The notes under the pieces are model-generated. The model was not told the DNA's origin and searched no databases. It worked only from the letters and a program-made list of their open reading frames with translations. From positions 33,489 through 97,488 of the forward strand of contig DUKZ01000020.1 in assembly GCA_013329045.1 (NCBI GenBank): 64,000 bases of DNA. Direction: 5' to 3'. Numbering within the stretch: position 1 is the stretch's first letter; each line of letters opens with the position of its first letter. This document shows positions 18,571-43,622 of this stretch, one piece after another. The DNA is from Candidatus Woesearchaeota archaeon (lineage in GTDB: Archaea > Nanobdellota > Nanobdellia > Woesearchaeales > UBA9989). The position numbers and the translations under genes are program-made.

Positions 18571-18776
18571 TCTAAGGTACCCCCTTATCGATCTCTCACC
18601 CCATTTTAGAATGCCCCCAGGCAAACTTAATAGGCAAAAAACATACTCATTATTTAAAGCTTGTGGTTTATTACTATTATAAAATAGTAAATATATAATA
18701 GAATAATATGGTAACGACCATCAAGTGACAAGAATCAAAGGTAATGTTTTAATAAAGGAATAATTAGCCTTCTCCC

Positions 18777-24656: not shown

Positions 24657-25780
24657 CAAGAGTTGGGACGATTAAGGCCATAGACAAGGTTCTTGGCACG
24701 CTCGGTGTTGTTCTTTTGGGATTGAAAAAAAAGAGTCCGCTGCCAAAGTCATTTTCTTCTATCTTATGCATCCAGTTGTGGGGGATGGGAGAGTCGATCT
24801 TGACGTTGCCTGCAATAATCGCAGTGAAGAAAGCAAATCCAAAGGCGACTATTTCAGTGCTGGCAACTGCAAGGAACAAGGATGTGTTTTTTGGTCAAAA
24901 GGATATTGACAACGTCATTGAGCTTGGCATGTCTCCAGGGATGATTCTTTCATTTATGAGGAAAAACAAGGATATGTTTGACCTTGTCATCGACTTTGAG
25001 GAGTACCTCAATATTTCGGCAATCATCGCGGCGAGGGTTGGAAAGCATACAATCGGGTTTTCAGGGCAGCCAAGATCCAGGGTATACGATGAGTCCATCC
25101 CATACAATGATGCACAGCATGTGGTGGTGACATGCATGGACCTGGCAAGGCTCGCTGGTGCAAAGGGGGTGCCAACAGAATTGCCAACGCTTGGTGCTGA
25201 TCTGTCTGATAAGAAGAGGGTTGATATATTCCTTAGAGAGAGTGGTGTTGGGAAACAGCCTTTTGTCGGCTTTGGAACAAGTGTTGCTGAATCATCAAAA
25301 TCTAGGATGTGGCCAAAAGAGAACTTTGCAAGACTTGCAGATTGGATGATAGGGAAAGAAAATGTCCATGTAGTCTTTGTTGGAACAAGAGGGGAGGTGG
25401 ACGCTATCCAGGAGATCATTGAGCTGATGCATCATAAAGATAAGGCAGTAAATGGGGCAGGAAGGCTGTCAATGAGGCAGCTGTTTGATTTTGTCGGTAG
25501 ATGCAGGATGTTTATTGGAAATGACTCTGGGCCAATGCATGTCGCAGCAGCAATGAGAGTTCCTACGATCGGTTTGTTTGGATGCAATCTCCCGGAAAGG
25601 TTTGGGCCATATGGAAAGAATGCTATGGGCATCAGAAAAGTCAAAGAAAGAAAGCCCTGCATCAACGTCCATCAGGGCGAGGTGAGGGAATGCCAGTTCG
25701 AGCAGACATGCGTCTCATTTATCTGGGTAGAAGATGTGCAGGAAGTGTGTGAGAGATTTTTTCGGAGGGAAAGAAAATAA
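24653..25780 (+). CDS. GT9 family glycosyltransferase (ADP-heptose:acceptor heptosyltransferase-like)
   Basis: GNDSGPMHVAAAMRVPTIGLFG C-terminal signature. N-terminal LWGMGESILTLPAI motif. Confidence 0.75.
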   Translation: MTRVGTIKAIDKVLGTLGVVLLGLKKKSPLPKSFSSILCIQLWGMGESILTLPAIIAVKKANPKATISVLATARNKDVFFGQKDIDNVIELGMSPGMILSFMRKNKDMFDLVIDFEEYLNISAIIAARVGKHTIGFSGQPRSRVYDESIPYNDAQHVVVTCMDLARLAGAKGVPTELPTLGADLSDKKRVDIFLRESGVGKQPFVGFGTSVAESSKSRMWPKENFARLADWMIGKENVHVVFVGTRGEVDAIQEIIELMHHKDKAVNGAGRLSMRQLFDFVGRCRMFIGNDSGPMHVAAAMRVPTIGLFGCNLPERFGPYGKNAMGIRKVKERKPCINVHQGEVRECQFEQTCVSFIWVEDVQEVCERFFRRERK

Positions 25781-26787
25781 TGGGAACAAGAAGAGAATTC
25801 CTCAGGGCTGCTGGAGGGATTGCTGCTCTCGCCCTCACGCATGGGTGCTCTGATCCAGTGTATAAGGGAAGGATTGCCTACCTGCTCCGCCAGCAAGGTC
25901 AGAATCTTGAATTATCTCTTGAGGTCGTTGATCTCGCAGCAGCAGGGACAAGATCATTAAGATCATTATATACAAGCCATATTGGTGATCTGGCTGTTAA
26001 TGGCAATGATCTGTACATAGCAGCATTCCCGGAGGAAATTCTCAAGAGGGTGAGCGTTGGCACAGGAGGGGTAGTTGATCTTCAAAGGGATCAACGATTC
26101 GCATATCGCTTCCCTTCCCCTTTAGGTGATGGCTTCTGTGCAGCATCTCTTCGTGAGAGCGGGAATGGTGGCGCTCATTTTCATATTGGTATTGTTGATG
26201 ACCAGCAAACAAGAGTGATCGTGGAGGATATTGCTCAGACGCAATACGCCGCAACCAGAAGAGGGCCAGATGTTGCTGTCGCTTACGCTAAACAAAGAGA
26301 GTCAATGTTGGAGATATGGAAAGGGATATGGACTCCTGAAAATGGCCAATTGAGAAACGATCAGCAGGTAGGTGATATTCCCATGGCGCCGCCAGATCCA
26401 TTCAAGCCCCAGCAATTGTTTCTTCGATTTGTGGGGGATGCATTAACAGTCTCTGATTCATCGATTGGATGTTTGTATTATGAGAAGGATGGATATCTCA
26501 GCCAGGCAGTCCTTGCCCAAGATGCCAGGATGATCAAACCCGGATCATACCTCTATGTCGATCAGGATGATCGCCGGGCAAGCCTTGTTTTGGATGATGG
26601 CTCGCCAAGAGAGATTTGGAGAACTGGTGGGATGATAAGGATTAGTGATATTCAGGACAGCGTAGCCCTTCTCACAAGAAGAGACGTGTATGGGACAGCG
26701 ATGATCATTGTGGATGTGTATTCTCAGGAGCGAATGATTGTTCCGCAAAAGAAGGGAATGCCGTTCATGCCATTGTTCCTGGATTAA
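25780..26787 (+). CDS. Secreted protein with a twin-arginine (Tat) signal and a Cys shortly after the h-region
   Basis: MGTRREFLRAAGGIAALALTHGCSDP. Unknown function; Gly/Asp-rich. Confidence 0.55.
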   Translation: MGTRREFLRAAGGIAALALTHGCSDPVYKGRIAYLLRQQGQNLELSLEVVDLAAAGTRSLRSLYTSHIGDLAVNGNDLYIAAFPEEILKRVSVGTGGVVDLQRDQRFAYRFPSPLGDGFCAASLRESGNGGAHFHIGIVDDQQTRVIVEDIAQTQYAATRRGPDVAVAYAKQRESMLEIWKGIWTPENGQLRNDQQVGDIPMAPPDPFKPQQLFLRFVGDALTVSDSSIGCLYYEKDGYLSQAVLAQDARMIKPGSYLYVDQDDRRASLVLDDGSPREIWRTGGMIRISDIQDSVALLTRRDVYGTAMIIVDVYSQERMIVPQKKGMPFMPLFLD

Positions 26788-27539
26788 GCGGCATGCACAT
26801 ATTCTCCGTGGGTAAAGAAGCCGACGAGCTGTTTGATCTTCGCAATCTTTGGAAAGAGGTGGTTTTCTAGGCTGGTTGTGTGTTCATCGAAGAGTGCAAA
26901 TACTTCTGGCTTGAGGAGATAGATGCCAGCATTCCCGACATGGGATGATATATGTTTTGGTTTTTCCTGGAAGTCGATGATAAGGTCTCCGTCAAGGATA
27001 GCATTGCCGAACCGTGAAGGTTCATTGATGCTCATGAGTCCCATCGTAGCCAGCTTGTCCTGCTGCATATGCTTTTTTTCCATCTGGTGGAGGTCAAAGT
27101 GGTTATAGACATCCCCGCTCATCACGATAAAATCCTGGTTGGACAGCTTGTCCTTGACAGCGAGCAATGCTTGTGCATTCCCTTTGACTGGCGCTTCGAT
27201 GATTTCTGCTGGAAGAATGCTTTGCTGGACTTCCGAATAGAGTTTCACGCTCTCTTTAGTATGCTGGGTCACGATGTATGCCTGCTTTATGCCATGAGAG
27301 TAAAAGAAATGCAATTGCTCAAGAATGAGGGATCGCTTGTGGAGTGATGAGAGGGAAGTGTGCTGGTGTTCACCTTTGAGCAGGAGCACAACTGTCTTGA
27401 TGGACTGCTCCTGGAGCCCTTTTTGGAGAAAGTATTCTATTGCCTGGCTTCTGCTCCTGATGATGGAGCCATCAACATGAGAATCTATCTGTCGGAGGAG
27501 TGGTTCATCGAGAGAGATGGCAATTTTAGCTTTGGTCAT
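26784..27539 (-). CDS. Ribbon-helix-helix (CopG/NikR-like) domain fused to a degenerate sugar-phosphate nucleotidyltransferase-like domain; putative regulator
   Basis: The ATG at 27539 gives MTKAKIAISLDEPLLRQIDSHV (RHH beta-strand plus helix pattern). The C-terminal GDVY...FGNAILDGDLIIDFQEKPK...NAGIYLLKPEVF matches the NTP_transferase core. The N-terminal GxGTRL nucleotide loop is replaced by KGEHQHTSLSS. Confidence 0.55.
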   Translation of the reverse strand: MTKAKIAISLDEPLLRQIDSHVDGSIIRSRSQAIEYFLQKGLQEQSIKTVVLLLKGEHQHTSLSSLHKRSLILEQLHFFYSHGIKQAYIVTQHTKESVKLYSEVQQSILPAEIIEAPVKGNAQALLAVKDKLSNQDFIVMSGDVYNHFDLHQMEKKHMQQDKLATMGLMSINEPSRFGNAILDGDLIIDFQEKPKHISSHVGNAGIYLLKPEVFALFDEHTTSLENHLFPKIAKIKQLVGFFTHGEYVHAA

Positions 27540-27544
27540 ACTAA

Positions 27545-27561
27545 GTATGAAATAGTATGAA
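27545..27561. promoter_or_regulatory. Direct repeat GTATGAA-ATA-GTATGAA adjacent to the regulator start
   Basis: Seen directly. It shares the half-site with the palindrome at 27649. Confidence 0.35.
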
Positions 27562-27648
27562 CTATTTAAACATTGCGTAATTATCCTCATGAAAGAGAAA
27601 GACTTTTGAGATGATAGGGAAAACCTTATAAAGAAGCGGTAAATAAAA

Positions 27649-27678
27649 GTATGAAATATTCATACCTACAGGTGTAGG
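27649..27678. promoter_or_regulatory. Two perfect palindromes (GTATGAA-ATA-TTCATAC and CCTACA-GG-TGTAGG) 11-40 nt upstream of the gmhA ATG; candidate operator
   Basis: Seen directly. They lie between the divergent RHH gene and the heptose operon. A GGAGGGG SD follows. Confidence 0.4.
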
Positions 27679-27688
27679 AGGGGTTCAC

Positions 27689-28303
27689 ATGGAAAACGTG
27701 ATTACGGAAAAAGAGATAGATGAGAAGATCCATCACTGGTTCTTGGAGAGCGCGCGGGTAAAAGAAGAGCTCGCAAGGACGCAGAGGAAGAACATGGCAA
27801 AGATTGCAGCTATCGTTATTGATGCGATCAGGAACGGCAATACCATCTTTGCCTGCGGCAATGGCGGATCGATGTGTGATGCACTGCATTTGACCGAGGA
27901 GCTCACCGGAAGATACAAGAAGAACAGAAAACCTCTCCCGGGACTCTGCCTTGGTGCAAATCAGGGGAGTGTCAGCTGCATCGGGAATGATTTTGGGTAT
28001 GATGATATCTTTTGCCGTGAGGTGCAGGCATTTGGAAAGAAAGGGGATGTTCTCATAGGGTTTAGTACATCAGGAAATTCGCTGAATGTGATAAAAGCGA
28101 TGGGATGTGCAAAAGCGCAGGGGTTAAAAACAATCGCATTGCTGGGAAAAGATGGGGGCAAGATGAAAGGCATGTGCGATGTTGAGATTATCGTTCCCAG
28201 TAATGAATCATCCAGGATCCAGGAGAGCCATATGCTTATCTATCATTCACTAATAGAGCTCGTTGATGATACATTATTTCCGGAGGGTGGAAAACATGAG
28301 TAA
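27689..28303 (+). CDS. gmhA: Sedoheptulose-7-phosphate isomerase (SIS domain)
   Basis: IFACGNGGSMCDALHLTEELTGRY...IGNDFGYDDIF...GDVLIGFSTSGNS...LLGKDGGKM is near-identical in pattern to bacterial GmhA. Confidence 0.85.
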   Translation: MENVITEKEIDEKIHHWFLESARVKEELARTQRKNMAKIAAIVIDAIRNGNTIFACGNGGSMCDALHLTEELTGRYKKNRKPLPGLCLGANQGSVSCIGNDFGYDDIFCREVQAFGKKGDVLIGFSTSGNSLNVIKAMGCAKAQGLKTIALLGKDGGKMKGMCDVEIIVPSNESSRIQESHMLIYHSLIELVDDTLFPEGGKHE

Positions 28304-29768
28304 GCAGTTGCAGGATGCATTAAAGAATGTCGTTGGAAAAAGGATTCTCGTCATTGGCGATGTGATGCTTGATAGGTATGTGTGGGGAAGCGTGGAAAGG
28401 ATTTCCCCTGAAGCGCCAATTCCCATCTGCCTGGTAAAGAGAGAAACAAATGTCCCGGGGGGCGCTGGGAACACAGCTGCAAACATTACAGCAATGAAGG
28501 GAAAATGCACTCTCCTGAGCGTTGTTGGTGATGATGAGGCAAGGAGGATGCTAAACAGCGAACTGGAATCTCGCGGGATTGATGTATCCGCAATGGTCGC
28601 TGAGCAGGAAAGGCCAACGACAAGAAAAACAAGGGTGATGGGCGGCCAGCAGCAGCTGCTCCGGCTGGACTTTGAGGACTCTTCACCGATTAAGGAAGAA
28701 AGCAGGCAAAAGATTATTGGGTATATCAAGAAGAATGTTTCCCTGTTTGACTGCGTGGTCATTTCTGATTATGCGAAGGGGGTCATTGATAGGGAGTTGG
28801 CAGAGGCAGTCGTCCAGGAAGCAGCAAGGGCAAGAAAGCCTTTGCTTGTCGATCCAAAGCCAAAGCATGCAAAATATTTCAAGGGTGCAACATTGATCAC
28901 CCCAAACCATAAGGAGGCTTCTGAGATCGCAGGTATCAGGGAGGAAAAGGAAGCAGACCATATCATCATAGGTAATCATCTCGTGAAGCTGATGGGTTCA
29001 GATATCCTGATCACAAGAGGGGAGAAGGGTATGACCTTGTTTCAGTTGAAGGAGAACGCAATTTCTGTTAATGAGTTCATGACGACGGCAAGGGAAGTGT
29101 ATGATGTGAGCGGTGCTGGGGATACGGTAGTAGCAGCACTTGCCTTATCGATGGCAGCTGGAAATCCCTTAGAGCTGGGGATCATGCTGGCAAATATTGC
29201 TGCAGGGATTAAGGTAGGAAAACTCGGAACTGCTGCTGTCACCTACCATGAGGTAGAGGATAAGATCATGAACATTGACGAGAAGATCAAGTCAAGAGAA
29301 CAAATCACCCTCGTAGCAAAGCAGGTAAGAGCAGAAGGCAAAAAGATAGTCACGACGAATGGCAGCTTTGACCTTCTGCACGCAGGCCACCTGAAATATC
29401 TTAATGAGGCAAAGGCGCAAGGCGACGTTTTGATCGTCGGGCTGAATAGTGATGACTCGGTCAGGCGCTGGAAGAAGACAGTTGGGTATGAGGATTGGAA
29501 AAACAGGCCGATCATTCCAGAGCAGTACCGCGCACGGATGCTTGCTGCATTGAAGAGTGTTGATTATGTGACTATCTTCGATGAGACAGAACCATTTGAG
29601 TTTCTAAACTCAGTCCATCCGGATGTCCATGTCAACGGCTCAGAATACGGGGAAAAGTGTATCGAAGCGGATCTCATCAAGTCGATGGGTGGCAGGATCC
29701 ACATTGTTGAGAAGGAAGCTGGCCTTTCCACATCAGAAGTGATCAAGAAGATCAAGGAGTCAAAGTGA
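28296..29768 (+). CDS. hldE: Bifunctional D-beta-D-heptose 7-phosphate kinase / D-beta-D-heptose 1-phosphate adenylyltransferase
   Basis: The ATG at 28296 follows GGAGGGTGG. The N-terminal PfkB kinase domain has VIGDVMLDRYVWG and DVSGAGDTVVAALA. The C-terminal cytidylyltransferase-fold domain has TNGSFDLLHAGHLKYL. Confidence 0.9.
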   Translation: MSKQLQDALKNVVGKRILVIGDVMLDRYVWGSVERISPEAPIPICLVKRETNVPGGAGNTAANITAMKGKCTLLSVVGDDEARRMLNSELESRGIDVSAMVAEQERPTTRKTRVMGGQQQLLRLDFEDSSPIKEESRQKIIGYIKKNVSLFDCVVISDYAKGVIDRELAEAVVQEAARARKPLLVDPKPKHAKYFKGATLITPNHKEASEIAGIREEKEADHIIIGNHLVKLMGSDILITRGEKGMTLFQLKENAISVNEFMTTAREVYDVSGAGDTVVAALALSMAAGNPLELGIMLANIAAGIKVGKLGTAAVTYHEVEDKIMNIDEKIKSREQITLVAKQVRAEGKKIVTTNGSFDLLHAGHLKYLNEAKAQGDVLIVGLNSDDSVRRWKKTVGYEDWKNRPIIPEQYRARMLAALKSVDYVTIFDETEPFEFLNSVHPDVHVNGSEYGEKCIEADLIKSMGGRIHIVEKEAGLSTSEVIKKIKESK

Positions 29769-30373
29769 TGATAAGCTCTGATGCAGGCAGTAGTAGAAGA
29801 GATGAATTCATCAAGAAGCACATAGAGGAAGTGCAAAAAAGCCTCAGTCGCCTTGATCAGGGAGAGATCAACAGATGCGTGTCCATCTTTTTCGATGCAT
29901 GGAAGCAGAAAAAGACCATCTTTTTCATGGGCAATGGCGGCTCGGGAAGCACGGCCAGCCATTTTGTTGCCGACATGAGCAAGTGGACAATCATTGAGGG
30001 CAGGCCGCGAGTAAGGGCAATTGCCCTAACAGACAATATGCCAAACATTCTTGCCTGGGGAAATGATGATGGATATGAGGCTATCTTTGTGGAGCAGCTA
30101 AAGAACCTGATGGGAAAAGGTGATGTTGTTGTGGGAATTAGCGGCTCTGGAAATTCAAGGAATGTCATTGAGGCGCTAAGATATGCGAATGATAATAATG
30201 CAGCAACCATTGCTTTCCTTGGTTTTGACGGCGGGAAGATGAAAGCAATTGCATCCCATAGCGTCCATGTGAAGAATGATCATATGGGGCAAGTTGAGGG
30301 GATCCATGCAGTGCTCCAGCACATAATTGTTGATGCGTTAAAGAAAGAGATAAAGGACGCAAACGTTCCATAG
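29765..30373 (+). CDS. Second SIS-domain GmhA-family isomerase paralog
   Basis: IFFMGNGGSGSTASHF...GDVVVGISGSGNSRNVIEAL...FLGFDGGKM. ATGA overlap with hldE. Confidence 0.7.
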   Translation: MMISSDAGSSRRDEFIKKHIEEVQKSLSRLDQGEINRCVSIFFDAWKQKKTIFFMGNGGSGSTASHFVADMSKWTIIEGRPRVRAIALTDNMPNILAWGNDDGYEAIFVEQLKNLMGKGDVVVGISGSGNSRNVIEALRYANDNNAATIAFLGFDGGKMKAIASHSVHVKNDHMGQVEGIHAVLQHIIVDALKKEIKDANVP

Positions 30374-30412: not shown

Positions 30413-31276
30413 ATGATGAAAAAGATTGAGAGTATCGAGGAATTGGAAGGGAAGGCAAGAGAATTGCGCATCACTACACTAAAGATGATTCATGCAGCTG
30501 GCTCTGGCCATCCCGGGGGATCATTATCAGCAGCTGATCTGCTCACAGCGATCTATTATCGGTTTATGAGGTTTAAGGCAGACCAGCCAAATTGGCCAGA
30601 GCGAGACAGGCTTATACTTTCAAAGGGCCATTGTTGCCCCATCTTATATGCAATCCTTGCGGATCAGGGATATTTTGAGAAGGAAAAACTCATGACTCTC
30701 AGAAAGATGGGAAGCATCCTCCAGGGCCATCCTGACAGGAATAAAACACCAGGAATAGAAGTTTCATCCGGTAGCCTTGGCCAGGGCCTCAGTGTTGCTG
30801 CGGGTATGGCATTAGCAGGGAAAATAGACAAAAAGCCCTACAAGACATACTGCATCCTTGGCGATGGAGAATTCCAGGAAGGAAGCAACTACGAGGCTTT
30901 GATGGCAGCAGCTCATTTCCGCATTCCAAACCTTGTGGCGATTCTTGATTATAACCAGATCCAACAGTGCGGGATGGTAAAGGATATCATGCATATTGAT
31001 CCAGTCGGTGAGAAAGTGAAAGCTTTTGGATGGAAGGTGTATGAGATTGATGGTCATGATATGGGAGAGATCGTAATGACACTCGAGAAGGCGCAAAAGG
31101 ACACTCAGCCAGTATTTATTGTTGCTCACACGGTGAAAGGGAAAGGTGTCTCGTTCATGGAGCTCAATAAGGATTTCCATGGAAGGGCGCCATCCGACGC
31201 AGAGTTGCATGCTGCGTTGCAGGAACTAGGCACGGTGACCAGCACCCAGCATCCGGCCCAAGGGGGGGTGGCATGA
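30413..31276 (+). CDS. Transketolase, N-terminal (TPP-binding) subunit
   Basis: GSGHPGGSLSAADLLTAIYY and LGDGEFQEG motifs. Split-type tkt. Confidence 0.85.
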   Translation: MMKKIESIEELEGKARELRITTLKMIHAAGSGHPGGSLSAADLLTAIYYRFMRFKADQPNWPERDRLILSKGHCCPILYAILADQGYFEKEKLMTLRKMGSILQGHPDRNKTPGIEVSSGSLGQGLSVAAGMALAGKIDKKPYKTYCILGDGEFQEGSNYEALMAAAHFRIPNLVAILDYNQIQQCGMVKDIMHIDPVGEKVKAFGWKVYEIDGHDMGEIVMTLEKAQKDTQPVFIVAHTVKGKGVSFMELNKDFHGRAPSDAELHAALQELGTVTSTQHPAQGGVA

Positions 31277-32253
31277 TGGCAGAATCGGTCAAGCTTAATC
31301 TTTCTTTCGACACAAGCAAACCAGAGGCGACAAGGGATGGTTTTGGAAAAGGCCTTGTCATCGAAGGTAAAAAGAACAAGGACATTATTGCCCTTGATGG
31401 TGATCTTGCAAACTCTACAAGGTCGGAATGGTTCGGGCAGGAATTTCCTGACCGGTTCTTCAATGTGGGGATTGCTGAGCAAAACCTTGTTGGCATGGCA
31501 GCTGGCCTAGCCCTTGCAGGAAAGATTCCTTTTGCGTGCTCGTTTGCAGGATTCCTTGTCAATAGGGGCCATGACATCATCAGGATTAGTGTTGCCTATT
31601 CAAATGCAAATGTCAAGCTCATTGGCACCCATGGAGGCATCCAGATCGGAGAGGATGGCCCGTCCAACCAGTCGATGAGTGATATTGCCTCTCTCAGGGC
31701 GCTTCCAAGGATGGTTATTGTTAATCCCTGTGACGCTCTCGAAGCGGCAAAGGCTGTTGAGGCATTCGTGAAGACAAAAGGACCGATGTATATGAGGCTC
31801 ACACGCAATAAGCTGCCATATTTTCATAAGGAAGACTACAAGTTCCAGCTCGGAAAGGCAGATATTATAAAGGAAGGCAAGGACGCAACAATCCTGGCAA
31901 CAGGCGCGCTTGTTGCTGAAGCGATGAAGGCAGCAAAAGAATTAGAGAACGAGGGCATTTCGACAAGGGTGATCAACATCCACACGATAAAACCGCTCGA
32001 CGCTGAGGCTGTCCTTCAGGCTGCAAGATCAACGAAGGTGATGATCACTGCTGAGGACCACAATGTCATCGGCGGCCTTGGGGGCGGGGTAGCAGAAGTC
32101 ATCGCTCAGCAGCAGATAAGCATCCCCTTCAGGATCATTGGTGTGAAGGACTCATTCGCAGAGTCTGCAACGCCAGATCAGCTCTTTGAGAAATACGGGC
32201 TGTCCTATCCCCATCTGGTAACCGCAGTAAAGGATCTGATGAAGAGGAAGTAA
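31273..32253 (+). CDS. Transketolase, C-terminal (pyrimidine-binding) subunit
   Basis: Overlaps the N-terminal subunit by ATGA. GIAEQNLVGMAAGLA motif. Confidence 0.85.
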   Translation: MMAESVKLNLSFDTSKPEATRDGFGKGLVIEGKKNKDIIALDGDLANSTRSEWFGQEFPDRFFNVGIAEQNLVGMAAGLALAGKIPFACSFAGFLVNRGHDIIRISVAYSNANVKLIGTHGGIQIGEDGPSNQSMSDIASLRALPRMVIVNPCDALEAAKAVEAFVKTKGPMYMRLTRNKLPYFHKEDYKFQLGKADIIKEGKDATILATGALVAEAMKAAKELENEGISTRVINIHTIKPLDAEAVLQAARSTKVMITAEDHNVIGGLGGGVAEVIAQQQISIPFRIIGVKDSFAESATPDQLFEKYGLSYPHLVTAVKDLMKRK

Positions 32254-32255
32254 GC

Positions 32256-32756
32256 ATGAAAAAAACGATTTATCTTGGTTTTGACCACGGCGCCTTTCAA
32301 GTAAGGGGGTTTGTGAGAAGATACCTTGGGGAAAAACAGGTAGCATACAAAGATTTTTCAAAAGAGAAGCTGGATCCATCAGATGATTATCCGGATGCGG
32401 TAGTGCCAGCAGCAAAGGCCGCTGCAAAAGATGGCTCCTTTGCGATTGTTGGGTGCTCAAGTGGCACGGGAAGCTCGATTGCTGCAAACAAGGTCAAAGG
32501 GATCAGGGCAGCCCCGCTGCATGATGAGACCCTTGTGTATCTGGCAAGGCTTCACAATGACCTGAATTGTCTTGCTCTTCGGGGGATGATTTTTTCCTCA
32601 GATATCCAGATGCAAACAGCAGGTTCATACATTAATTTATTGTCGATCAAGCACACCTCAGTGACAGAACAGGAAGTGAGAAAATTGGTGAAGGTATTCC
32701 TTGAAACCGAGTTTGAAGGCGGCCGTCATCAGAAAAGGATTGAGAAGATCGAATGA
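32256..32756 (+). CDS. rpiB: Ribose-5-phosphate isomerase B
   Basis: LGFDHGAF...GCSSGTGSSIAANKVKGIRAA...EGGRHQKRIEKI matches RpiB/LacAB. Confidence 0.8.
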   Translation: MKKTIYLGFDHGAFQVRGFVRRYLGEKQVAYKDFSKEKLDPSDDYPDAVVPAAKAAAKDGSFAIVGCSSGTGSSIAANKVKGIRAAPLHDETLVYLARLHNDLNCLALRGMIFSSDIQMQTAGSYINLLSIKHTSVTEQEVRKLVKVFLETEFEGGRHQKRIEKIE

Positions 32757-32780
32757 AAGAAGAAGTGAGTTGAAAGAAGG

Positions 32781-33416
32781 ATGAACAAAAAAAAGTCTAT
32801 CATTTCCGTATCATTCCTCTCAGCAGACCAAGGAATGCTCAAAGAGGAGCTCGAATCAGTTGGTACTGCTGATTATTTCCACGTTGATGTGATGGACGGT
32901 AGGTTTGTTCCAAGAAAGACGTACTGCCCGGAAGATATCATCAGCCTCGAACTCACTGTTCCGCTCGATGTGCACCTGATGGTTGATAAGCCGGAAAATA
33001 TGATTGATGATTGGCTAAGAACAGGACCATCTATTGTGGTATTCCATTATGAAGCAACAACAAAGCACAAAGAGATTATTGCAATGCTCCACAAGCAGGA
33101 GGTCAAAGCCGGCATCTCGGTAAAACCGGGAACGCCGGCAAAAGTCCTCTTCCCATTCCTCGCGACAATCGACCTTGTTTTGGTCATGACTGTTGAGCCT
33201 GGCGCTGCGGGCCAATCATTTATGCCAGAAATGCTGGAAAAAGTAAGAGGTTTAAGGAAAGCTGGCTTCAAGGGAATCATCGAGGTCGATGGCGGGATCA
33301 CGCTGGAGAACCAGAAGAAGGCAAAGCTTGCAGGAGCGGACATGTTTGTTTCCGCATCATTCATATTCAAACACAAGGACAGGAAAGCCATTATTCGGCA
33401 GATGCAGGAGGTATGA
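32781..33416 (+). CDS. rpe: Ribulose-phosphate 3-epimerase
   Basis: HVDVMDGRFVP, DVHLMV and EVDGGI motifs. Confidence 0.8.
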   Translation: MNKKKSIISVSFLSADQGMLKEELESVGTADYFHVDVMDGRFVPRKTYCPEDIISLELTVPLDVHLMVDKPENMIDDWLRTGPSIVVFHYEATTKHKEIIAMLHKQEVKAGISVKPGTPAKVLFPFLATIDLVLVMTVEPGAAGQSFMPEMLEKVRGLRKAGFKGIIEVDGGITLENQKKAKLAGADMFVSASFIFKHKDRKAIIRQMQEV

Positions 33417-34075
33417 AGATGGAAATTTGGGCAGATACAGCAAATACAGCGGAGATCGAGAAGATCAATGCGCTTGGAATCCTAGATGGTGTGACAACTA
33501 ATCCAAGCTTGATTGCAAAAGAGGCTGGCGATCCAATCGCGATTTTAAAGAGGATAACATCAGTTGTTAAAGGGCCTGTTTCTGCAGAGGTGATTAGCGT
33601 TGAAGCTGATGGGATGATAAAGGAAGGAACTAAGCTGGCAGGCATTGCTCCAAACATTGTTGTAAAGATCCCAATGGGCATAGAAGGGTTAAAAGCAATT
33701 AAAGTGCTGCATCAGAAAGGTATTCGCACGAACTGCACGTTGACTTTTTCTGCTAACCAGGCACTTCTTGCAGCAAAGGCTGGCGCATCGTATGTCAACG
33801 CTTTTGTTGGAAGAATTGATGATGAGGGTGATGATGGCTTTCGCCTCGTCCAGGATATCCTGGTGATGCTGGAGAACTATAAGCTCCAGTCAGAGCTCAT
33901 CGTCGCATCAATCAGGCATCCCTGGCATGTCCATCTCTCAGCCCAAGCAGGAGCGCATGTTGCAACGATTCCAACAGCAGTCATCGAGAAGATGGCCAGC
34001 CACATAAGGACAACTGAGGGGATCAATAAGTTTCTTGCAGATTGGAACAAGGCAGGAAAGGAATACAAGATTTGA
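33413..34075 (+). CDS. tal: Transaldolase, short Fsa/TalC subfamily
   Basis: WADTANTAEIEK...GVTTNPSL...VVKIPMG...TNCTLTFS...FVGRIDD resembles MJ0960-type transaldolase. Confidence 0.85.
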   Translation: MKMEIWADTANTAEIEKINALGILDGVTTNPSLIAKEAGDPIAILKRITSVVKGPVSAEVISVEADGMIKEGTKLAGIAPNIVVKIPMGIEGLKAIKVLHQKGIRTNCTLTFSANQALLAAKAGASYVNAFVGRIDDEGDDGFRLVQDILVMLENYKLQSELIVASIRHPWHVHLSAQAGAHVATIPTAVIEKMASHIRTTEGINKFLADWNKAGKEYKI

Positions 34076-34110
34076 TAGTGTAAAGTGGAGTTGCGCTGGA
34101 AAAGGTTTGA

Positions 34111-34192
34111 AGCAACAACAATGGCACAAATCGCGTAGGCTCTACGCGAAGGTTTTCAAAGAAAACCGGTTTGTCGCCAGTATTGTTGTTGC
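34111..34192. repeat. Double-hairpin palindromic element, copy B
   Basis: Outer 11-bp perfect stem GCAACAACAAT/ATTGTTGTTGC, extended imperfectly. Inner hairpins CGCGTAG-gct-CTACGCG and GGTTTT-caaag-AAAACC. Confidence 0.6.
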
Positions 34193-34235
34193 CCAATGAA
34201 ATGAAAGGTAGAGTGAGTCAATAATTAAAGAGGGC

Positions 34236-35219
34236 ATGATGTACAAAAATCTGGCATTGGAATTTGTCCGGGCAACCGAAGCAGCAGCGCTAGCCAGCGC
34301 TAAGTGGATGGGCAAGGGCAATGAGAAGATGGCTGATCACGCAGCAGTTGAGGCAATGAGGAAGCATTTCAACTTCATGGATATTGATGGAACGGTGGTT
34401 ATTGGTGAGGGTGAGCGTGATGAAGCTCCCATGCTCTACATTGGAGAGAAGCTTGGCAACGGAAAAGGGCCAAAAGTTGATATCGCTGTTGATCCATTGG
34501 AAGGAACAACAATTACGGCAAGGGGGGATCCAAACGCAATAACCGTTCTGGCTTCCGCACCAAAGGGCCATTTGCTCCATTCACCGGACACCTATATGGA
34601 CAAGATCGCTGTGGGGAAAGATGCTGTTGGTGTCATTGATCTTGATGCATCAGTAAAAGATAACATTCTCGCTGTCGCAGATAAGCTTGGGAAGGATTGT
34701 GATGAGATAACCGTGATTATTCTTGATCGTGACCGCCATATTGAACTCATCAAGCAGGTGAGGGAGTGTGGCTGCAGGATCAGGCTTATTCGTGATGGTG
34801 ATGTTGCAGGCGCTCTCGCCCCAGCTCTTCCAGACTCTGGTATTGACATTTTGATGGGTATTGGCGGTGCCCCGGAAGGTGTTCTTGGCGCTGCTGGCTT
34901 GAAATGTCTTGGTGGTGAGATTCAAGGAAGGCTCAAGTTCAGGAACCCCTCAGAGAAAGAGCGGGCGATTGGTATGGGGTTGAGCGATCCAGAAAAGATT
35001 TTCACCATGAAGGAGATGGTGGGAGGGGAAGATGTGATGTTTGCAGCAACGGGCGTGACTGACGGCACCATCCTGAAGGGGGTGAGATTTATTCATAACG
35101 GCGCATCGACCCATTCATTGGTGATGCGGTCAGCTTCTGGCACAGTAAGATTCATTGAGGCAAATCATAAGTTTGGAGATGAAAGAGGTGATATCCATGA
35201 AAAAAATGAAAGAAAGTGA
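34236..35219 (+). CDS. glpX: Fructose-1,6-bisphosphatase class II / sedoheptulose-1,7-bisphosphatase (GlpX family)
   Basis: ALEFVRATEAAALASAKWMGKG...DGTVVIGEGERDEAPMLYIGEKLG...DIAVDPLEGTT aligns closely with E. coli GlpX. Confidence 0.85.
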   Translation: MMYKNLALEFVRATEAAALASAKWMGKGNEKMADHAAVEAMRKHFNFMDIDGTVVIGEGERDEAPMLYIGEKLGNGKGPKVDIAVDPLEGTTITARGDPNAITVLASAPKGHLLHSPDTYMDKIAVGKDAVGVIDLDASVKDNILAVADKLGKDCDEITVIILDRDRHIELIKQVRECGCRIRLIRDGDVAGALAPALPDSGIDILMGIGGAPEGVLGAAGLKCLGGEIQGRLKFRNPSEKERAIGMGLSDPEKIFTMKEMVGGEDVMFAATGVTDGTILKGVRFIHNGASTHSLVMRSASGTVRFIEANHKFGDERGDIHEKNERK

Positions 35220-36138
35220 CGTAGGAGTTCCAGGGGATGTTCCAGCAGGTGCAAAGAAAACATACATCAAAAATTTCCTGAAGGTGACCCATAACACTAG
35301 GAGAGTTATGCTGTTTGCGGGCGACCAAAAGATTGAGCATCTCAATGATGATTTTTATGGCACTGTTAAGATGGAAGGAAAAGAAGTGTCGATCTCAAAA
35401 GATGATGCCGATCCAGAGCACCTTTTTAGGATTGCATCAAAGGCAAATATTGGTGTCTTTGCAGGCCAGCTAGGCCTCATCGCCCGGTATGGAAAGTCAT
35501 ACAAGAACATTCCTTACCTGATTAAGCTTAATTCAAAATCCCACTTGGTAAAGACAGAACTCCAGGATCCGTTGAGCAAGGCTTTGTGGGATATTGAGCG
35601 TATTGTAAAATTCAGGAAAGACTCAGGCTTGAATGTTGTTGGTGTTGGCTATACTGTTTATGTTGGCAGCATGTATGAGCCAAAAATGCTCAAGGAGGCA
35701 GCAAGGATCGCTTTTGATGCGCATCAAGCTGGCCTTTTGGCAATTTTCTGGATGTATCCGAGGGGAAAAGCAATTCTTGATGAGAAAGATCCTCATTTGA
35801 TTGCCGGGGCAGCCGGCACAGGTGCCTGTCTTGGTGCTGACTTTGTGAAGGTAAATTATCCAAAGCCAAAGGAAGGAAAAGCCGCAGAATCATTCAAGGA
35901 AGCAGTGCTCGCTGCCGGAAGGACTGGGGTGATTACTGCTGGCGGCTCTTCTAAGCCTCCAAGGGAGTTTTTACAGGAAACTTGGGATCAGATCCACATC
36001 GCTGGCTGTCGGGGAAATGCTACCGGAAGAAATATCCATCAGCGGTCTCTCAGTGAAGCAGTAAAGCTGGCTAATGCCATTGCCTCAATCACGTATGAGG
36101 ACAAGAGTGTTGATGAAGCGATGAAGATGATGGGGTGA
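35197..36138 (+). CDS. fbaB: Class I fructose-bisphosphate aldolase, DhnA/FbaB archaeal type
   Basis: The ATG at 35197 follows GAGGTGAT. YLIKLNSKSHL, VGYTVYVGS, LAIFWMYPRG, GADFVKVNYPK and GRNIHQ blocks. Confidence 0.75.
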   Translation: MKKMKESDVGVPGDVPAGAKKTYIKNFLKVTHNTRRVMLFAGDQKIEHLNDDFYGTVKMEGKEVSISKDDADPEHLFRIASKANIGVFAGQLGLIARYGKSYKNIPYLIKLNSKSHLVKTELQDPLSKALWDIERIVKFRKDSGLNVVGVGYTVYVGSMYEPKMLKEAARIAFDAHQAGLLAIFWMYPRGKAILDEKDPHLIAGAAGTGACLGADFVKVNYPKPKEGKAAESFKEAVLAAGRTGVITAGGSSKPPREFLQETWDQIHIAGCRGNATGRNIHQRSLSEAVKLANAIASITYEDKSVDEAMKMMG

Positions 36139-36720: not shown

Positions 36721-36758
36721 AAACAACCTTTTTAAACCCCACCGCTCTTCATCCTTGT

Positions 36759-37439
36759 ATGAAACTTTCCATCATCATCCCCGCCTACAACGAGGAGAAA
36801 TTCATCAAGAAAGTTGTGGGCATCGTAAAAAAAGTTGATTTGGGAAAAATCGAGAAGGAAATCATCATCGTCAATGACGCTTCAAAGGATAACACAGGTA
36901 ATATTATCCAAAAAATCAAAGGGGTAAAGATTCTGAACCACAAGGTAAATCAAGGCAAGGGCGCGGCCATCAGGACTGGCCTCCAGCATGCGACAGGCGA
37001 CATCGTCCTCATCCAGGACGCTGATCTCGAATACGACCCGAACGAATACCCAAAATTAATTCAGCCAATTATCCAGGGTCATGCTGATATTGTCTATGGC
37101 TCAAGGTTCACAGCATCGCACAATCCCAAATACAGATTGTATTATCTTGGTAATAAGTTTCTCACTCTTCTCACCAATATCCTCTACGGCGCAAGAATTA
37201 CTGACATGGAAACCTGTTATAAAGTGATGAAAAAGGATGTCATCAAGGGGATGAAGTTGAGGGCAAATAGGTTTGATTTCGAGCCGGAAATTACCGCAAA
37301 ACTCCTCAAACAAAAAAAGAAGATTATAGAAGTCCCAATCACCTATCACTGCCGTGATTTTGCTGAAGGAAAAAAGATCACGTGGAAAGACGGCATGCTC
37401 GCTGTTTGGTATTTGATAAAATATAGGTTTGTTGATTAG
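36759..37439 (+). CDS. GT2 glycosyltransferase (DPM1-like)
   Basis: LSIIIPAYNEE...IVNDASKDNT...DADLEYDP motifs. Confidence 0.8.
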   Translation: MKLSIIIPAYNEEKFIKKVVGIVKKVDLGKIEKEIIIVNDASKDNTGNIIQKIKGVKILNHKVNQGKGAAIRTGLQHATGDIVLIQDADLEYDPNEYPKLIQPIIQGHADIVYGSRFTASHNPKYRLYYLGNKFLTLLTNILYGARITDMETCYKVMKKDVIKGMKLRANRFDFEPEITAKLLKQKKKIIEVPITYHCRDFAEGKKITWKDGMLAVWYLIKYRFVD

Positions 37440-42511: not shown

Positions 42512-42869
42512 GGACATAAAGAATCTGGGAGGGCTAGTAACCATAGCAGTAGTCATTGTTCAAGTGTTCTTTAGCAAGACAAACATCTTGATAACCGCAA
42601 GGCTTGTTATTTCTCTCGTATGGATTTCCCTCATTCCAGGGTATGGTCTTTTGCTGACATGGCGAGAGAGGCTGACCTTCTTGGAGTATAGTGTTCTTGC
42701 AGCATTTGTTGGTGCCTCAGTAACAGGAATCCTCAGTTATCACCTGGGCCTCATTGGAGTTAATTTGTCATCACAACCAATCCTTCTTCCGTTAATCTTA
42801 TTAATGATTGGCATTGCCATCGAGTGGAAGGTGAAAAAACATGAAACCGCAAACCCATCTCACCGTTAG
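42489..42869 (+). CDS. Small hypothetical membrane protein
   Basis: 126 aa with 3-4 TM helices. Overlaps its neighbours. Confidence 0.4.
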   Translation: MNQKSLLEDIKNLGGLVTIAVVIVQVFFSKTNILITARLVISLVWISLIPGYGLLLTWRERLTFLEYSVLAAFVGASVTGILSYHLGLIGVNLSSQPILLPLILLMIGIAIEWKVKKHETANPSHR

Positions 42870-43263
42870 CACGCTCCTCGCAGCCCTTTTCTACCCATTG
42901 ATCGGCTGGAATGCCCTATGGGTATTCATGACAGGATTTCTGGTGGATCTGGACCATTTTATCTATTATTATGCAATAAAGAGAGATCTTAGCATTAAAG
43001 GTTTTTTTGAGTTTTTTGGGCCAGAAAACCAGGAGTTCCACCAGGGGTGCATGTGTATCTTCCACAGTTTTGAGATTCTCGTCATTTTTATCGTCGCAAG
43101 TTTCTTTTCGATGGTCATCTTTGCAGCAACAGCCTCCCTTGCCATCCATTACTTGATGGATTATATTTATGAAAAGGGTATTTCTGGAGAGGGGTATGTA
43201 AAATCCATGTCCCATATTGCGTATGCAAAAAGAAAGCGCATGAAGCAAAATCAAAAGAAATAG
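42841..43263 (+). CDS. Hypothetical membrane protein
   Basis: 140 aa with 3 TM helices and an LVDLDHF motif. Its last 7 codons are part of the 108-nt repeat. Confidence 0.45.
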   Translation: MKPQTHLTVSTLLAALFYPLIGWNALWVFMTGFLVDLDHFIYYYAIKRDLSIKGFFEFFGPENQEFHQGCMCIFHSFEILVIFIVASFFSMVIFAATASLAIHYLMDYIYEKGISGEGYVKSMSHIAYAKRKRMKQNQKK

Positions 43264-43459: not shown

Positions 43460-43622
43460 GAAAGGACAAGACGAGAAAGAGAGCAATCTCTCTTCTAGTG
43501 CGGTATTCGAATGAATATATAGTATTAATAGGTTATATTACAAAGATTATTATGAGGAGAATAGACACGCTTATATAGTTTGAAGTTTCAAATAAAGTTT
43601 CAAGGGTTATTTATTAAAAGAG

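What the first reader, a model, noticed from the sequence alone, without database searches (positions are those of the whole stretch)
26784..27688. RHH DNA-binding domain fused to a degenerate sugar-1-P nucleotidyltransferase domain, divergent from the heptose operon, with perfect palindromes in the shared spacer
The N-terminus has a CopG/NikR-like ribbon-helix-helix signature. The rest aligns with the NTP_transferase core, but the Gly-rich nucleotide loop is replaced (KGEHQHTSLSS), which suggests a ligand-sensing rather than a catalytic role. The 150-nt spacer to gmhA contains GTATGAA-ATA-GTATGAA near the regulator start, and the perfect palindromes GTATGAAATATTCATAC and CCTACAGGTGTAGG just upstream of the gmhA SD. 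RHH proteins typically bind such repeats. This could be a sugar-nucleotide-responsive repressor of heptose synthesis, an architecture I do not recognise as described.
Basis: partly seen in the sequence, partly recalled or inferred. Interest (0 to 1): 0.7.

Follow-up and report, generated by a model that had tools for sequence, protein, structure and literature searches.

The report
Archaeal heptose-operon regulator with dead-enzyme sensor
This gene from a tiny DPANN archaeon most likely encodes a DNA-binding switch, a NikR-like ribbon-helix-helix head fused to a catalytically eroded sugar-nucleotide enzyme domain, that sits on conserved GTATGAA repeats at the promoter of the heptose-sugar operon and at its own promoter; this kind of regulator does not appear to have been described.

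Summary
The minus-strand gene 26784..27539 (251 aa) has a NikR-like RHH N-terminus and an NTP_transferase core. In that core the GGxGTR...PK nucleotide loop is replaced by KGEHQ plus a 9-residue deletion, and the Mg-Asp motif by GEYxH. Both changes are conserved across the family. GTATGAA-ATA-GTATGAA and GTATGAAATATTCATAC are real. CCTACAGGTGTAGG is not a perfect palindrome and is not conserved.

The window is archaeal (Woesearchaeota-like), not bacterial. In about 80 species-level genomes the gene lies divergent from a heptose operon (GmhA, kinase, phosphatase, adenylyltransferase, epimerase) and next to GT9-DUF2304-GT2-AglB.

GTATGAA-N3-TTCATAC is perfect in 54 of 79 orthologous spacers. It never occurs elsewhere in 874 kb of flanks. 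It lies between the TATA box and the start of the operon's first gene, and it stays with the operon when insertions separate the two genes. Two or three half-sites at 10-bp phase lie between the regulator's own TATA box and its start codon, so its mRNA is probably leaderless. The half-site equals that of E. coli NikR.

Best reading: an autoregulated repressor of heptose supply for glycosylation, with a dead nucleotidyltransferase fold as metabolite sensor. The ligand and the sign of regulation are inferred. I found no published description.

The parts
26784..27539 (-). Regulator gene ('REG'), 251 aa including the stop codon; the start is ATG 27539, not the upstream ATG 27590
   Evidence: ORF list. 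The N-terminus M-x-K-x-K-I-A-I-S is conserved at the start codon in 80+ orthologs. 614 homologs were found, and the top 120 are about 250 aa and 59-65% identical.
27405..27539 (-). NikR-like ribbon-helix-helix DNA-binding domain (aa 1-45). Invariant residues K3, K5, A7, I8, S9 (beta-strand) and R28-S-R-S-Q-A33 (N-cap of helix 2)
   Evidence: Pfam RHH_1 at 18.7 bits, with 20 of 21 relatives hit and P0166 above GA. NCBIfam NikR E 1.4e-3. hhalign to NikR residues 3-41, probability 78.7%. Invariant columns.
26787..27401 (-). Sugar-1-phosphate nucleotidyltransferase-fold domain (aa 47-251), catalytically eroded and presumed to be the ligand sensor. It keeps GNA120-122, D143, EKP192-194, NAG203-205 and E225
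   Evidence: Pfam PF00483 E 4.6e-21. PDB GMPP/VTC1/RmlA matches, E down to 1e-13. Foldseek hits on GMPPA/B, VTC1 and RmlA. Conservation.
27336..27377 (-). Degenerate nucleotide loop K55-K68 (KGEHQHTSLSSLHK), which replaces GGxGTRLxPLTxxxPKPL and is 9 residues shorter
   Evidence: Alignment with in-family relatives that keep intact motifs. KGEHQ is near-invariant.
26787..26807 (-). C-terminal G245-E-Y-V-H249-A-A. The invariant His stands where the Mg-binding Asp of GxWxDxG lies, and the protein ends 2 residues later
   Evidence: H249 is invariant even in the deep clade.
27535..27561 (.). O_reg, the regulator-proximal operator: three half-sites at 10-bp phase (GTCATAC 27535-41, GTATGAA 27545-51, GTATGAA 27555-61). 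The first overlaps the start codon
   Evidence: Orthologs carry 2-3 phased half-site-like repeats that end 1-5 nt before the ATG.
27563..27570 (-). TATA box of the regulator gene (TTTAAATA on the minus strand), centred about 27 nt upstream of ATG 27539, which implies a leaderless mRNA
   Evidence: Read directly from the sequence. The conserved TATAWAAAG / TTTAAATAG element occupies the same position in orthologs. No TSS has been mapped.
27619..27633 (+). BRE/TATA of the heptose operon (GAAAACC-TTATAAAG)
   Evidence: Matches the ortholog consensus cgaaaNNtttaWata, which lies 2-16 nt upstream of the palindrome. Inferred; no TSS has been mapped.
27649..27665 (.). O_hep, the operon operator: perfect palindrome GTATGAA-ATA-TTCATAC, centred about 27 nt downstream of the TATA centre, at the predicted TSS
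27665..27678 (+). CCTAC-AGGT-GTAGG, a 5-bp inverted repeat in the 5' leader that overlaps the SD GGAGG (27677-27681). Probably not a functional part
   Evidence: Not conserved. Fold z = -0.67.
27689..30373 (+). Presumed target genes: gmhA (27689-28303, SIS_2), bifunctional hldE-like kinase/adenylyltransferase (28263-29768, PfkB + CTP_transf_like) and a second SIS protein (29765-30373)
   Evidence: Pfam. Divergent synteny conserved.
30413..36138 (+). Same-strand continuation, specific to this window: split transketolase, RpiB, Rpe, transaldolase, GlpX FBPase and DeoC-type aldolase (sedoheptulose-7-P supply). Co-transcription has not been shown
   Evidence: Pfam.

Best explanation
REG is a one-component transcription regulator of a DPANN (Woesearchaeota-like) archaeon.

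DNA binding. Its N-terminal NikR-type ribbon-helix-helix domain dimerises, and each dimer reads a 7-bp half-site GTATGAA. Two adjacent dimers occupy the 17-bp palindrome O_hep (27649-27665). O_hep lies between the TATA box and the start of gmhA, over the predicted transcription start. Bound protein there would keep RNA polymerase off the heptose operon, whose products convert sedoheptulose-7-P to ADP-heptose. Two or three dimers occupy the phased half-sites of O_reg (27535-27561), which lie between REG's own TATA box and its start codon. That gives negative autoregulation.

Sensing. The C-terminal domain has the sugar-1-phosphate nucleotidyltransferase fold. It has lost the triphosphate/Mg catalytic apparatus but keeps the sugar-phosphate and nucleotide contact motifs. 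It most likely binds a pathway metabolite, either NDP-heptose (the end product) or heptose-1-phosphate. It would set the oligomer geometry that allows DNA binding, so that heptose supply for GT9/AglB-dependent glycosylation is feedback-controlled.

Shown computationally: domain composition, loss of catalytic motifs, conserved synteny, and conserved position-specific operators.

Inferred: actual DNA binding, repression rather than activation, the existence and identity of a ligand, and co-repressor logic.
For: Domains.

Catalytic erosion. KGEHQ plus a 9-aa deletion replaces GGxGTR..PK, and GEYxH replaces GxWxDxG. Both are conserved in 116 members and contrast with intact relatives. Meanwhile GNA, D143, EKP, NAG and E225 stay invariant, which points to selection on a binding pocket.

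An authentic adenylyltransferase (CTP_transf_like) is already encoded in the operon.

Synteny. REG is divergent from the heptose operon in nearly all of 84 loci. It is also divergent in relatives about 30% identical that use the GHMP-kinase/HddC-type pathway.

Operators:
- The palindrome is perfect in 54 of 79 orthologous spacers and has at most 1 mismatch in 62 of 79.
- All 80 occurrences in 874 kb lie upstream of REG. The 12 distant ones abut the first heptose gene where an insertion separates the two genes.
- The palindrome sits 2-16 nt downstream of BRE/TATA and 1-30 nt upstream of the first ATG.
- The REG-proximal phased repeats end 1-5 nt before the ATG.
- In the window the matches are unique: 0.01 and 0.04 expected.

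The half-site hexamer is identical to that of the E. coli NikR operator GTATGA-N16-TCATAC (PMC7055735), and the RHH is most similar to NikR.

Concerted change. In L087 both operators read GTAGGAA/TTCCTAC and the RHH strand is KVSVSI instead of KIAISL.
Against: - There is no experimental DNA-binding or ligand data.
- RHH_1 is below Pfam's gathering score in the window protein itself.
- The AF2 models are poor (pLDDT 61-65) and the RHH is not confidently folded.
- The profile search of PDB with the N-terminus alone gives only E = 0.23, to an RHH antitoxin.
- Repression is inferred from operator position only. No TSS is mapped.
- In deep-clade members the EKP lysine is not conserved, so the ligand or binding mode may differ, or the domain may be a scaffold only.
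- The concerted operator/strand change rests on one locus.
- A minority of orthologs (L081, L083, L084 and others) lack the palindrome.
Confidence: 0.68

Rival explanations
1. REG binds the same operators but works as an activator or dual regulator. For example, it could recruit TBP/TFB when the precursor is abundant, rather than act as a repressor.
For: All the operator and synteny evidence is equally compatible with DNA binding of either sign. In some loci TATA and the palindrome are 12-16 nt apart, so the exact overlap with the TSS is uncertain.
Against: Both operators lie downstream of the TATA boxes and directly abut or overlap the start codons. In characterised archaeal systems that is the repressor position. 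This rule rests on established knowledge, not on a test made here.
Confidence: 0.12
2. The nucleotidyltransferase-like domain senses nothing. It is only an oligomerisation scaffold that spaces the RHH dimers, and REG is a constitutive autoregulated repressor whose level sets operon expression.
For: The catalytic loop is deleted. The EKP lysine is variable in the deep clade. NT-fold enzymes such as RmlA and GMPP are obligate oligomers (established knowledge; PDB hits).
Against: Residues that line the substrate cleft in NT enzymes (GNA, D143, EKP, NAG, E225) are invariant in 116 members, as are the replacement residues H58, Q59 and H249. That is more than a scaffold needs. The link to heptose genes persists across two different heptose pathways.
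Confidence: 0.12
3. REG is still an enzyme (a heptose-1-P nucleotidyltransferase) and also a regulator: a PutA-like bifunctional 'trigger enzyme'.
For: Distant fusion relatives (P0172, P0204, P0210, P0190) keep every catalytic motif. P0172 matches the whole PF00483 profile (E 5.8e-45) and is followed by a phosphoglucomutase/phosphomannomutase gene. The ancestral state was therefore probably enzyme plus RHH.
Against: In the window clade the Arg of GxGTR and the Lys of PKPL are gone, with a 9-aa deletion, and the Mg-Asp is His. The operon already encodes the pathway's adenylyltransferase.
Confidence: 0.05
4. The repeats are promoter or other-factor elements, and REG is not the protein that binds them. 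The N-terminal similarity to RHH would then be spurious, or would serve another role such as an antitoxin-like function.
For: The RHH statistics are individually modest. The metagenome-wide scan shows that the 14-base pattern also occurs by chance in many unrelated contigs.
Against: The repeats occur at both promoters of the REG/heptose pair and nowhere else in 874 kb. They change in concert with the RHH strand in L087. They match the half-site of the nearest characterised RHH relative, NikR. The RHH residues are the most invariant part of the protein.
Confidence: 0.03

Closest known systems
NikR (nickel-responsive RHH repressor, E. coli and H. pylori; PDB 1q5v, 2hzv)
   Same: It has an N-terminal RHH of the same sequence type (hhalign probability 78.7%, 33% identity over 39 residues). 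It is a ligand-sensing C-terminal domain fused to an RHH. Its operator is built from the same hexamer half-sites, GTATGA/TCATAC. It is a repressor whose operator overlaps the promoter.
   Different: Its sensor is an ACT-like Ni-binding tetramerisation domain, not an NT fold. The half-site spacing is N16 in NikR against N5 here, although some orthologs have N15 at O_reg. The beta-strand contact residues are R3/T5/T7 in NikR and K5/A7/S9 here. REG is archaeal and controls sugar-nucleotide synthesis, not metal uptake.
GMPPA (catalytically inactive paralog in the GMPPA/GMPPB complex; PDB 7d72-7d74)
   Same: It is a sugar-1-P nucleotidyltransferase fold that has lost catalysis and, by established knowledge, serves as a product (GDP-mannose) sensor for feedback control. 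These entries are among the top structural and sequence neighbours.
   Different: GMPPA acts allosterically on an enzyme partner through a C-terminal left-handed beta-helix domain. REG lacks that domain and has a DNA-binding RHH instead, so the feedback would be transcriptional.
PutA (RHH + proline dehydrogenase/P5C dehydrogenase)
   Same: It is an RHH fused to a metabolic enzyme module, and it autoregulates a divergent operon. The catalytically intact fusion relatives (P0172 type) may work this way.
   Different: PutA's enzyme domains are active and unrelated in fold. The enzyme domain of the window protein is eroded.
MetJ / Arc / CopG-type RHH repressors
   Same: Adjacent RHH dimers bind tandem or inverted short repeats about one helical turn apart. 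MetJ uses a pathway end product (SAM) as co-repressor.
   Different: These are single-domain proteins, and the ligand binds the RHH body itself. There is no enzyme-derived sensor.
TrmB-family archaeal sugar-sensing regulators
   Same: They are archaeal one-component regulators in which a sugar-binding domain controls a DNA-binding domain at TATA-proximal operators.
   Different: TrmB has a winged-helix DNA-binding domain and a different sugar-binding fold. There is no homology to REG.

Membership tests
Ribbon-helix-helix (CopG/NikR/MetJ/Arc) DNA-binding superfamily | N-terminal beta-alpha-alpha module detectable by family profiles | tested here: met
   RHH_1 hits 20 of 21 members at E 4e-4 to 2e-3 and passes the gathering score in relative P0166 (21.2 against 20.5). 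The NCBIfam NikR N-terminus gives E 1.4e-3. hhalign to the NikR RHH gives probability 78.7% and E 1.7e-5. The window protein alone is sub-threshold at 18.7 bits.
Ribbon-helix-helix (CopG/NikR/MetJ/Arc) DNA-binding superfamily | Predicted or solved fold with an intertwined dimer and a two-stranded antiparallel sheet | tested here: inconclusive
   The monomer AF2 models give two helices at residues 12-20 and 30-44 but pLDDT below 50 in this region. A dimer could not be modelled with these tools.
Ribbon-helix-helix (CopG/NikR/MetJ/Arc) DNA-binding superfamily | Binds repeated short operator half-sites about one helical turn apart | not testable with these tools
   Conserved half-sites at 10-bp phase at both promoters are consistent with this feature. 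Binding itself needs EMSA or footprinting.
NikR | C-terminal ACT-like nickel-binding domain (NikR_C) with His/Cys metal ligands | tested here: not met
   The C-terminal 205 aa are of the NTP_transferase fold. There is no NikR_C hit. The NCBIfam NikR match covers only aa 5-49.
NikR | Operator with GTATGA / TCATAC half-sites | tested here: met
   The half-site hexamers are identical, but the spacing is N5 instead of N16.
Sugar-1-phosphate nucleotidylyltransferases (PF00483; RmlA, GMPP, HddC, GlmU N-domain) | Homologous Rossmann-like NT fold | tested here: met
   PF00483 E 4.6e-21. PDB GMPP E 1e-13. Foldseek E 7e-10 to GMPPB, VTC1 and RmlA.
Sugar-1-phosphate nucleotidylyltransferases (PF00483; RmlA, GMPP, HddC, GlmU N-domain) | N-terminal signature G-G-x-G-T-R-L-x-P-L-T...P-K-P-L (Arg and Lys bind the NTP phosphates) | tested here: not met
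   The signature is replaced by L-L-K-G-E-H-Q, with a 9-residue deletion that removes the PK segment. The replacement is conserved in 116 members.
Sugar-1-phosphate nucleotidylyltransferases (PF00483; RmlA, GMPP, HddC, GlmU N-domain) | Mg-binding Asp in the C-terminal G-x-W-x-D-x-G motif | tested here: not met
   G-E-Y-V-H249 has an invariant His at the Asp position, and the protein ends 2 residues later.
Sugar-1-phosphate nucleotidylyltransferases (PF00483; RmlA, GMPP, HddC, GlmU N-domain) | Sugar-phosphate and nucleotide contact motifs (GxA, GD, EKP, NAG, E) | tested here: met
   G120-N-A, D143, E192-K-P, N203-A-G and E225 are invariant in the core family. EKP is variable in the deep clade.
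Catalytically dead NT-fold metabolite sensors (GMPPA-like) | Binds NDP-sugar without turnover and transmits feedback | not testable with these tools
   Only the eroded active site with a retained pocket is shown. Ligand binding needs ITC, DSF or a structure.
Catalytically dead NT-fold metabolite sensors (GMPPA-like) | C-terminal left-handed beta-helix domain that contacts a catalytic paralog | tested here: not met
   The protein ends at residue 251, directly after the NT core.

The most novel reading that the evidence does not exclude
RHH-nucleotidyltransferase fusions would form an unrecognised, DPANN-wide class of one-component regulators. There are at least 115 clusters at 50% identity, all currently annotated as 'NDP-sugar pyrophosphorylase'. 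The class captures a complete evolutionary series. At one end are catalytically intact moonlighting enzyme-repressors (P0172 type, next to phosphomannomutase). At the other are dead-enzyme sensors (the window clade) that read nucleotide-heptose or heptose-phosphate levels. They would give transcriptional feedback on cell-surface glycan precursor supply in organisms thought to have minimal regulation. This would be the first nucleotide-sugar-sensing transcription factor described in archaea, and it reuses the NikR half-site code.
Probability: 0.4. Interest if true: 0.78.

Novelty: new variant of a known kind. Interest (0 to 1): 0.66.

Why it matters
DPANN archaea have tiny genomes and almost no characterised regulation. 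Nothing is known about how any archaeon controls the supply of nucleotide-activated heptose for glycosylation.

This locus offers a compact system that can be tested directly. It comprises a 251-aa protein, two defined operators of 17 and 27 bp, and a short list of candidate ligands.

It would add a new sensor-domain type, a dead sugar nucleotidyltransferase, to the RHH regulator repertoire. It would correct the 'NDP-sugar pyrophosphorylase' annotation of hundreds of database entries. The series from intact to eroded enzyme is a clean case of an enzyme turning into a sensor.

ADP-heptose is also an innate-immune agonist and an antibiotic-target pathway product, so a natural heptose-metabolite-responsive DNA switch could serve as a biosensor.

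Tried and rejected
- AlphaFold2, two runs with 21-sequence and 116-sequence alignments. Mean pLDDT was 61.5 and 65.3. The RHH and residues 143-204 had low confidence, so the models were used only to confirm the NT fold by Foldseek. Dimer or tetramer modelling was not possible.
- Profile of the N-terminal 55 aa against PDB sequences. The only hit was E = 0.23, to the RHH antitoxin Rv0298. This is weak, and the hhalign comparison with NikR superseded it.
- Scan of metagenome contigs for distant relatives. Alignment A4 was too divergent to seed patterns. P0166 alone found nothing.
- Metagenome-wide scan for GTATGAANNNTTCATAC. Of 120 hits, only about 10 lie next to REG or heptose genes, and the rest are chance matches in unrelated contigs. 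No extra regulon members could be identified this way.
- Search for further operators in the window and in ±6 kb of 84 loci, for example upstream of the GT9/AglB genes. None was found.
- CCTAC/GTAGG as an operator or regulatory hairpin. Rejected: it is not conserved and does not fold better than shuffles.
- Bacterial reading (sigma-70 promoter, LPS heptose). Rejected: the tRNA carries an intron (ARAGORN found none), STT3/AglB lies next door, and all homologs come from Woesearchaeota or Nanoarchaeota.
- Literature. Seven full-text searches found no description of the fusion or of heptose regulation in archaea.
Full report
**What is in the sequence**

The flagged interval holds a minus-strand ORF, 26784..27590. 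Its real start is ATG 27539. The peptide M-x-K-x-K-I-A-I-S begins at a start codon in more than 80 orthologous loci, whereas the upstream 17 codons are not conserved as protein. The product is 251 aa. The spacer to gmhA (ATG 27689) is 149 nt.

- Pfam finds NTP_transferase (PF00483) at E 4.6e-21. The match covers only profile positions 25-188 of 245, so the N-terminal Gly-rich loop is not matched.
- Pfam finds RHH_1 at 18.7 bits, just under the gathering score of 20.5.
- NCBIfam gives a string of sugar-1-P nucleotidyltransferase models, all far below their cut-offs, and a weak NikR match confined to residues 5-49.
- The best solved relatives are GDP-mannose pyrophosphorylases (VTC1, GMPPB), which align from their residue ~31 onwards.

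**The host is an archaeon**

- Rfam finds a 118-nt tRNA, long enough to hold an intron, at 3020-3137. ARAGORN in bacterial mode finds no tRNA.
- An STT3/AglB oligosaccharyltransferase lies 4 kb away.
- All 120 listed homologs (59-65% identity, about 250 aa) that carry a name come from Woesearchaeota or Nanoarchaeota MAGs. The same holds for the 80 GTDB species loci, apart from record titles reading 'uncultured Methanosarcinales', which are probably mislabels.
- Promoters must therefore be read as BRE/TATA, not sigma-70.

**The RHH domain**

RHH_1 hits 20 of 21 family members and passes Pfam's gathering score in the distant relative P0166. A profile of the first 55 residues aligns to the RHH of E. 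coli NikR (residues 5-43 against 3-41, 33% identity, hhalign probability 78.7%, E 1.7e-5).

The strand residues K5, A7 and S9 correspond to the NikR base-contacting residues R3, T5 and T7. Their role in NikR is established knowledge, not something tested here. These residues and the helix-2 N-cap R-S-R-S-Q-A are invariant in 116 members.

The AF2 monomer models are poor in this region, as expected for an obligate dimer. A PDB profile search gave only a weak RHH antitoxin hit.

**The enzyme-like domain is eroded**

The representative search shows that the fusion is much broader than the core family: 115 clusters at E ≤ 1e-30, aligned full-length down to E ~1e-28. Some distant fusion proteins (P0172, P0204, P0210, P0190) keep every catalytic signature: GGxG(T/S)(R/K)LxPxT...PK and GQW(Y/F)D(T/V)G. 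P0172 matches the whole PF00483 profile (E 5.8e-45) and is followed by a phosphoglucomutase/phosphomannomutase gene.

Aligned against these, the window clade differs as follows:

- It has L-L-K-G-E-H-Q followed by a 9-residue deletion that removes the PK segment.
- It ends in G-E-Y-x-H, where the Mg-binding Asp motif would be.
- KGEHQ and H249 are (near-)invariant.
- The cleft motifs GNA, D143, EKP, NAG and E225 remain invariant in the core family.

Foldseek with the AF2 model returns GMPPA/GMPPB, VTC1 and RmlA.

**Conserved neighbourhood**

In the loci fetched for three homologs and in nearly all of the 80 GTDB loci, the gene is flanked in the same way.

- Upstream and divergent: a heptose operon with SIS/GmhA, or a cupin-epimerase as first gene, then an HldD-like epimerase, a PfkB kinase, a HAD phosphatase and a CTP_transf_like adenylyltransferase.
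- Downstream and convergent: GT9 heptosyltransferase, DUF2304, GT2 and STT3/AglB.

In the window, the upstream operon runs gmhA, bifunctional hldE, a second SIS protein, then split transketolase, RpiB, Rpe, transaldolase, GlpX and a DeoC-type aldolase. The downstream side runs AglB, GT2, DUF2304, GT9 and an unconserved 335-aa ORF.

Relatives about 30% identical (P0166, P0158, P0140, P0152) still sit divergent from heptose genes. Those are of the GHMP-kinase / HAD-NTP_transferase (GDP-heptose) type. The link to heptose synthesis is thus older than the pathway variant.

**The operators**

- *Operon side.* GTATGAA-N3-TTCATAC is perfect (14 of 14 specified bases) in 54 of 79 distinct orthologous upstream regions, and has at most 1 mismatch in 62. 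The N3 centre and the flanks vary.
- *Specificity.* In 874 kb of fetched loci, all 80 matches lie upstream of REG. The 12 that are more than 260 nt away sit directly at the start of the first heptose gene, in loci where an insertion separates the two genes. The palindrome therefore belongs to the operon promoter.
- *Geometry.* On the operon strand the palindrome lies 2-16 nt downstream of a BRE/TATA consensus (cgaaaNNtttaWata) and 1-30 nt upstream of the first ATG. It covers the expected transcription start.
- *Regulator side.* A TATA box (TATAWAAAG or TTTAAATAG) is followed by two or three half-site-like repeats at 10-nt phase, for example GTAATAC-ttt-TTACTAC-tta-TTCATAC. In some loci the arrangement is GTATGAA-N13-TTCATAC. 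The repeats end 1-5 nt before the ATG in most loci, which implies a leaderless or near-leaderless mRNA.
- *In the window.* The elements are GTCATAC / GTATGAA / GTATGAA at 27535, 27545 and 27555, TATA at 27563-27570, the operon BRE/TATA at 27619-27633, and the palindrome at 27649-27665 (1 match, 0.01 expected).
- *NikR parallel.* The half-site hexamers are those of the E. coli NikR operator GTATGA-N16-TCATAC (PMC7055735).
- *Concerted change.* In locus L087 both operators have changed together to GTAGGAA-N3-TTCCTAC and TTCCTAC-ctt-ATACTAC, and the RHH strand reads KVSVSI instead of KIAISL. This is a single case, but it is what direct readout predicts.
It is not conserved and does not fold better than shuffled sequence.

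**Mechanism**

The most economical model is an autoregulated repressor. RHH dimers bind half-sites one helical turn apart and sit over the transcription start of both the heptose operon and REG's own gene. The eroded nucleotidyltransferase fold serves as oligomerisation and sensor module for a heptose-pathway metabolite, either NDP-heptose as end product or heptose-1-P.

The operon already encodes the true adenylyltransferase, which argues against a catalytic role for REG. DNA binding, the sign of regulation and the ligand are inferences. The rivals are activation, a ligand-less scaffold, residual enzyme activity and a different binding protein. They are listed with the experiments that would separate them.

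**Comparison with known systems and novelty**

- REG works like NikR (RHH plus C-terminal sensor, same half-site). It fails NikR membership because it has no NikR_C domain and a different half-site spacing.
- Its sensor resembles GMPPA, the dead nucleotidyltransferase that senses GDP-mannose. It lacks GMPPA's beta-helix domain and would act on DNA, not on an enzyme.
- The intact relatives resemble PutA in logic.
- All database names for the family are 'NDP-sugar pyrophosphorylase / nucleotidyltransferase family protein'.
- Seven full-text searches found no description of the fusion or of heptose regulation in archaea.

I rate it a new variant of a known kind: an RHH one-component regulator with a new, enzyme-derived sensor domain and a new target pathway, in DPANN archaea.

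**Limits**

- Structure prediction was poor, and no oligomer or DNA complex could be modelled.
- The metagenome scans for distant relatives failed.
- The collection-wide pattern scan returned mostly chance hits, with about 10 of 120 next to REG or heptose genes.
- The regulon outside the ±6-kb flanks is unknown.

Noticed in passing
window 3020-3137 (+): An Rfam tRNA match of 118 nt (47.5 bits) that ARAGORN in bacterial mode does not call. It is most likely an intron-containing archaeal tRNA, and it was used here only as evidence for the domain of life.
   Followed up: partly
window 30413-36138 (+): Directly after the heptose genes, on the same strand, lies a full non-oxidative pentose-phosphate / gluconeogenic block: split transketolase, RpiB, Rpe, transaldolase, GlpX FBPase and a DeoC-type aldolase. 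It could supply sedoheptulose-7-P. This block is absent from the orthologous loci examined, and co-transcription with gmhA was not tested.
   Followed up: partly
window 25780-26787 (+): A 335-aa ORF between GT9 and REG with no Pfam hit and no tblastn match in the 84 loci examined at that point. Its N-terminus (MGTRREFLRAAGGIAALALTHGCSD) looks like a twin-arginine signal followed by a lipobox Cys. Its stop codon overlaps REG's stop codon (26784-26787).
   Followed up: no
window 42000-52000: G+C drops to 0.37-0.40 against about 0.46 elsewhere in the window. This may be an island or foreign segment. It was not examined.
   Followed up: no
L085 6001-6840 and L086 3394-4233 (protein P0172): A distant RHH-nucleotidyltransferase fusion with every catalytic motif intact (PF00483 positions 2-241, E 5.8e-45). 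It is followed by a phosphoglucomutase/phosphomannomutase gene and is not linked to heptose genes. It may be a bifunctional enzyme-repressor and the ancestral state of the family.
   Followed up: partly
L087 about 4860-5000: A variant operator pair in a distant relative (P0166): GTAGGAA-GTT-TTCCTAC at the operon side and TTCCTAC-ctt-ATACTAC before the regulator's ATG, together with the RHH strand KVSVSI. It is a candidate specificity switch, seen in one locus only.
   Followed up: partly
L190 185-830: An unrelated 1.3-kb metagenome contig carries eight exact copies of GTATGAANNNTTCATAC, most of them at a 42-nt period. This is some tandem-repeat array (iteron-like or CRISPR-like), and no REG homolog is present.
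   Followed up: no
window 36748-36763: A half-site pair, TTCATCC-tt-GTATGAA (9-nt phase, 1 mismatch), lies just upstream of ORF 36759-37439. It is probably chance. It is the only other near-pair in the 64 kb.
   Followed up: no
window 15961-18624 (-): An 887-aa ORF with no Pfam domain at E ≤ 1e-5, upstream of the glycosylation cluster.
   Followed up: no
L018 and L019 (contigs NZDH01000002.1 and NZDH01000019.1): The same MAG (ARS106) carries the REG-GT9-DUF2304-GT2 segment on two contigs, with identical upstream sequence. This is either a duplication or an assembly or binning redundancy.
   Followed up: no
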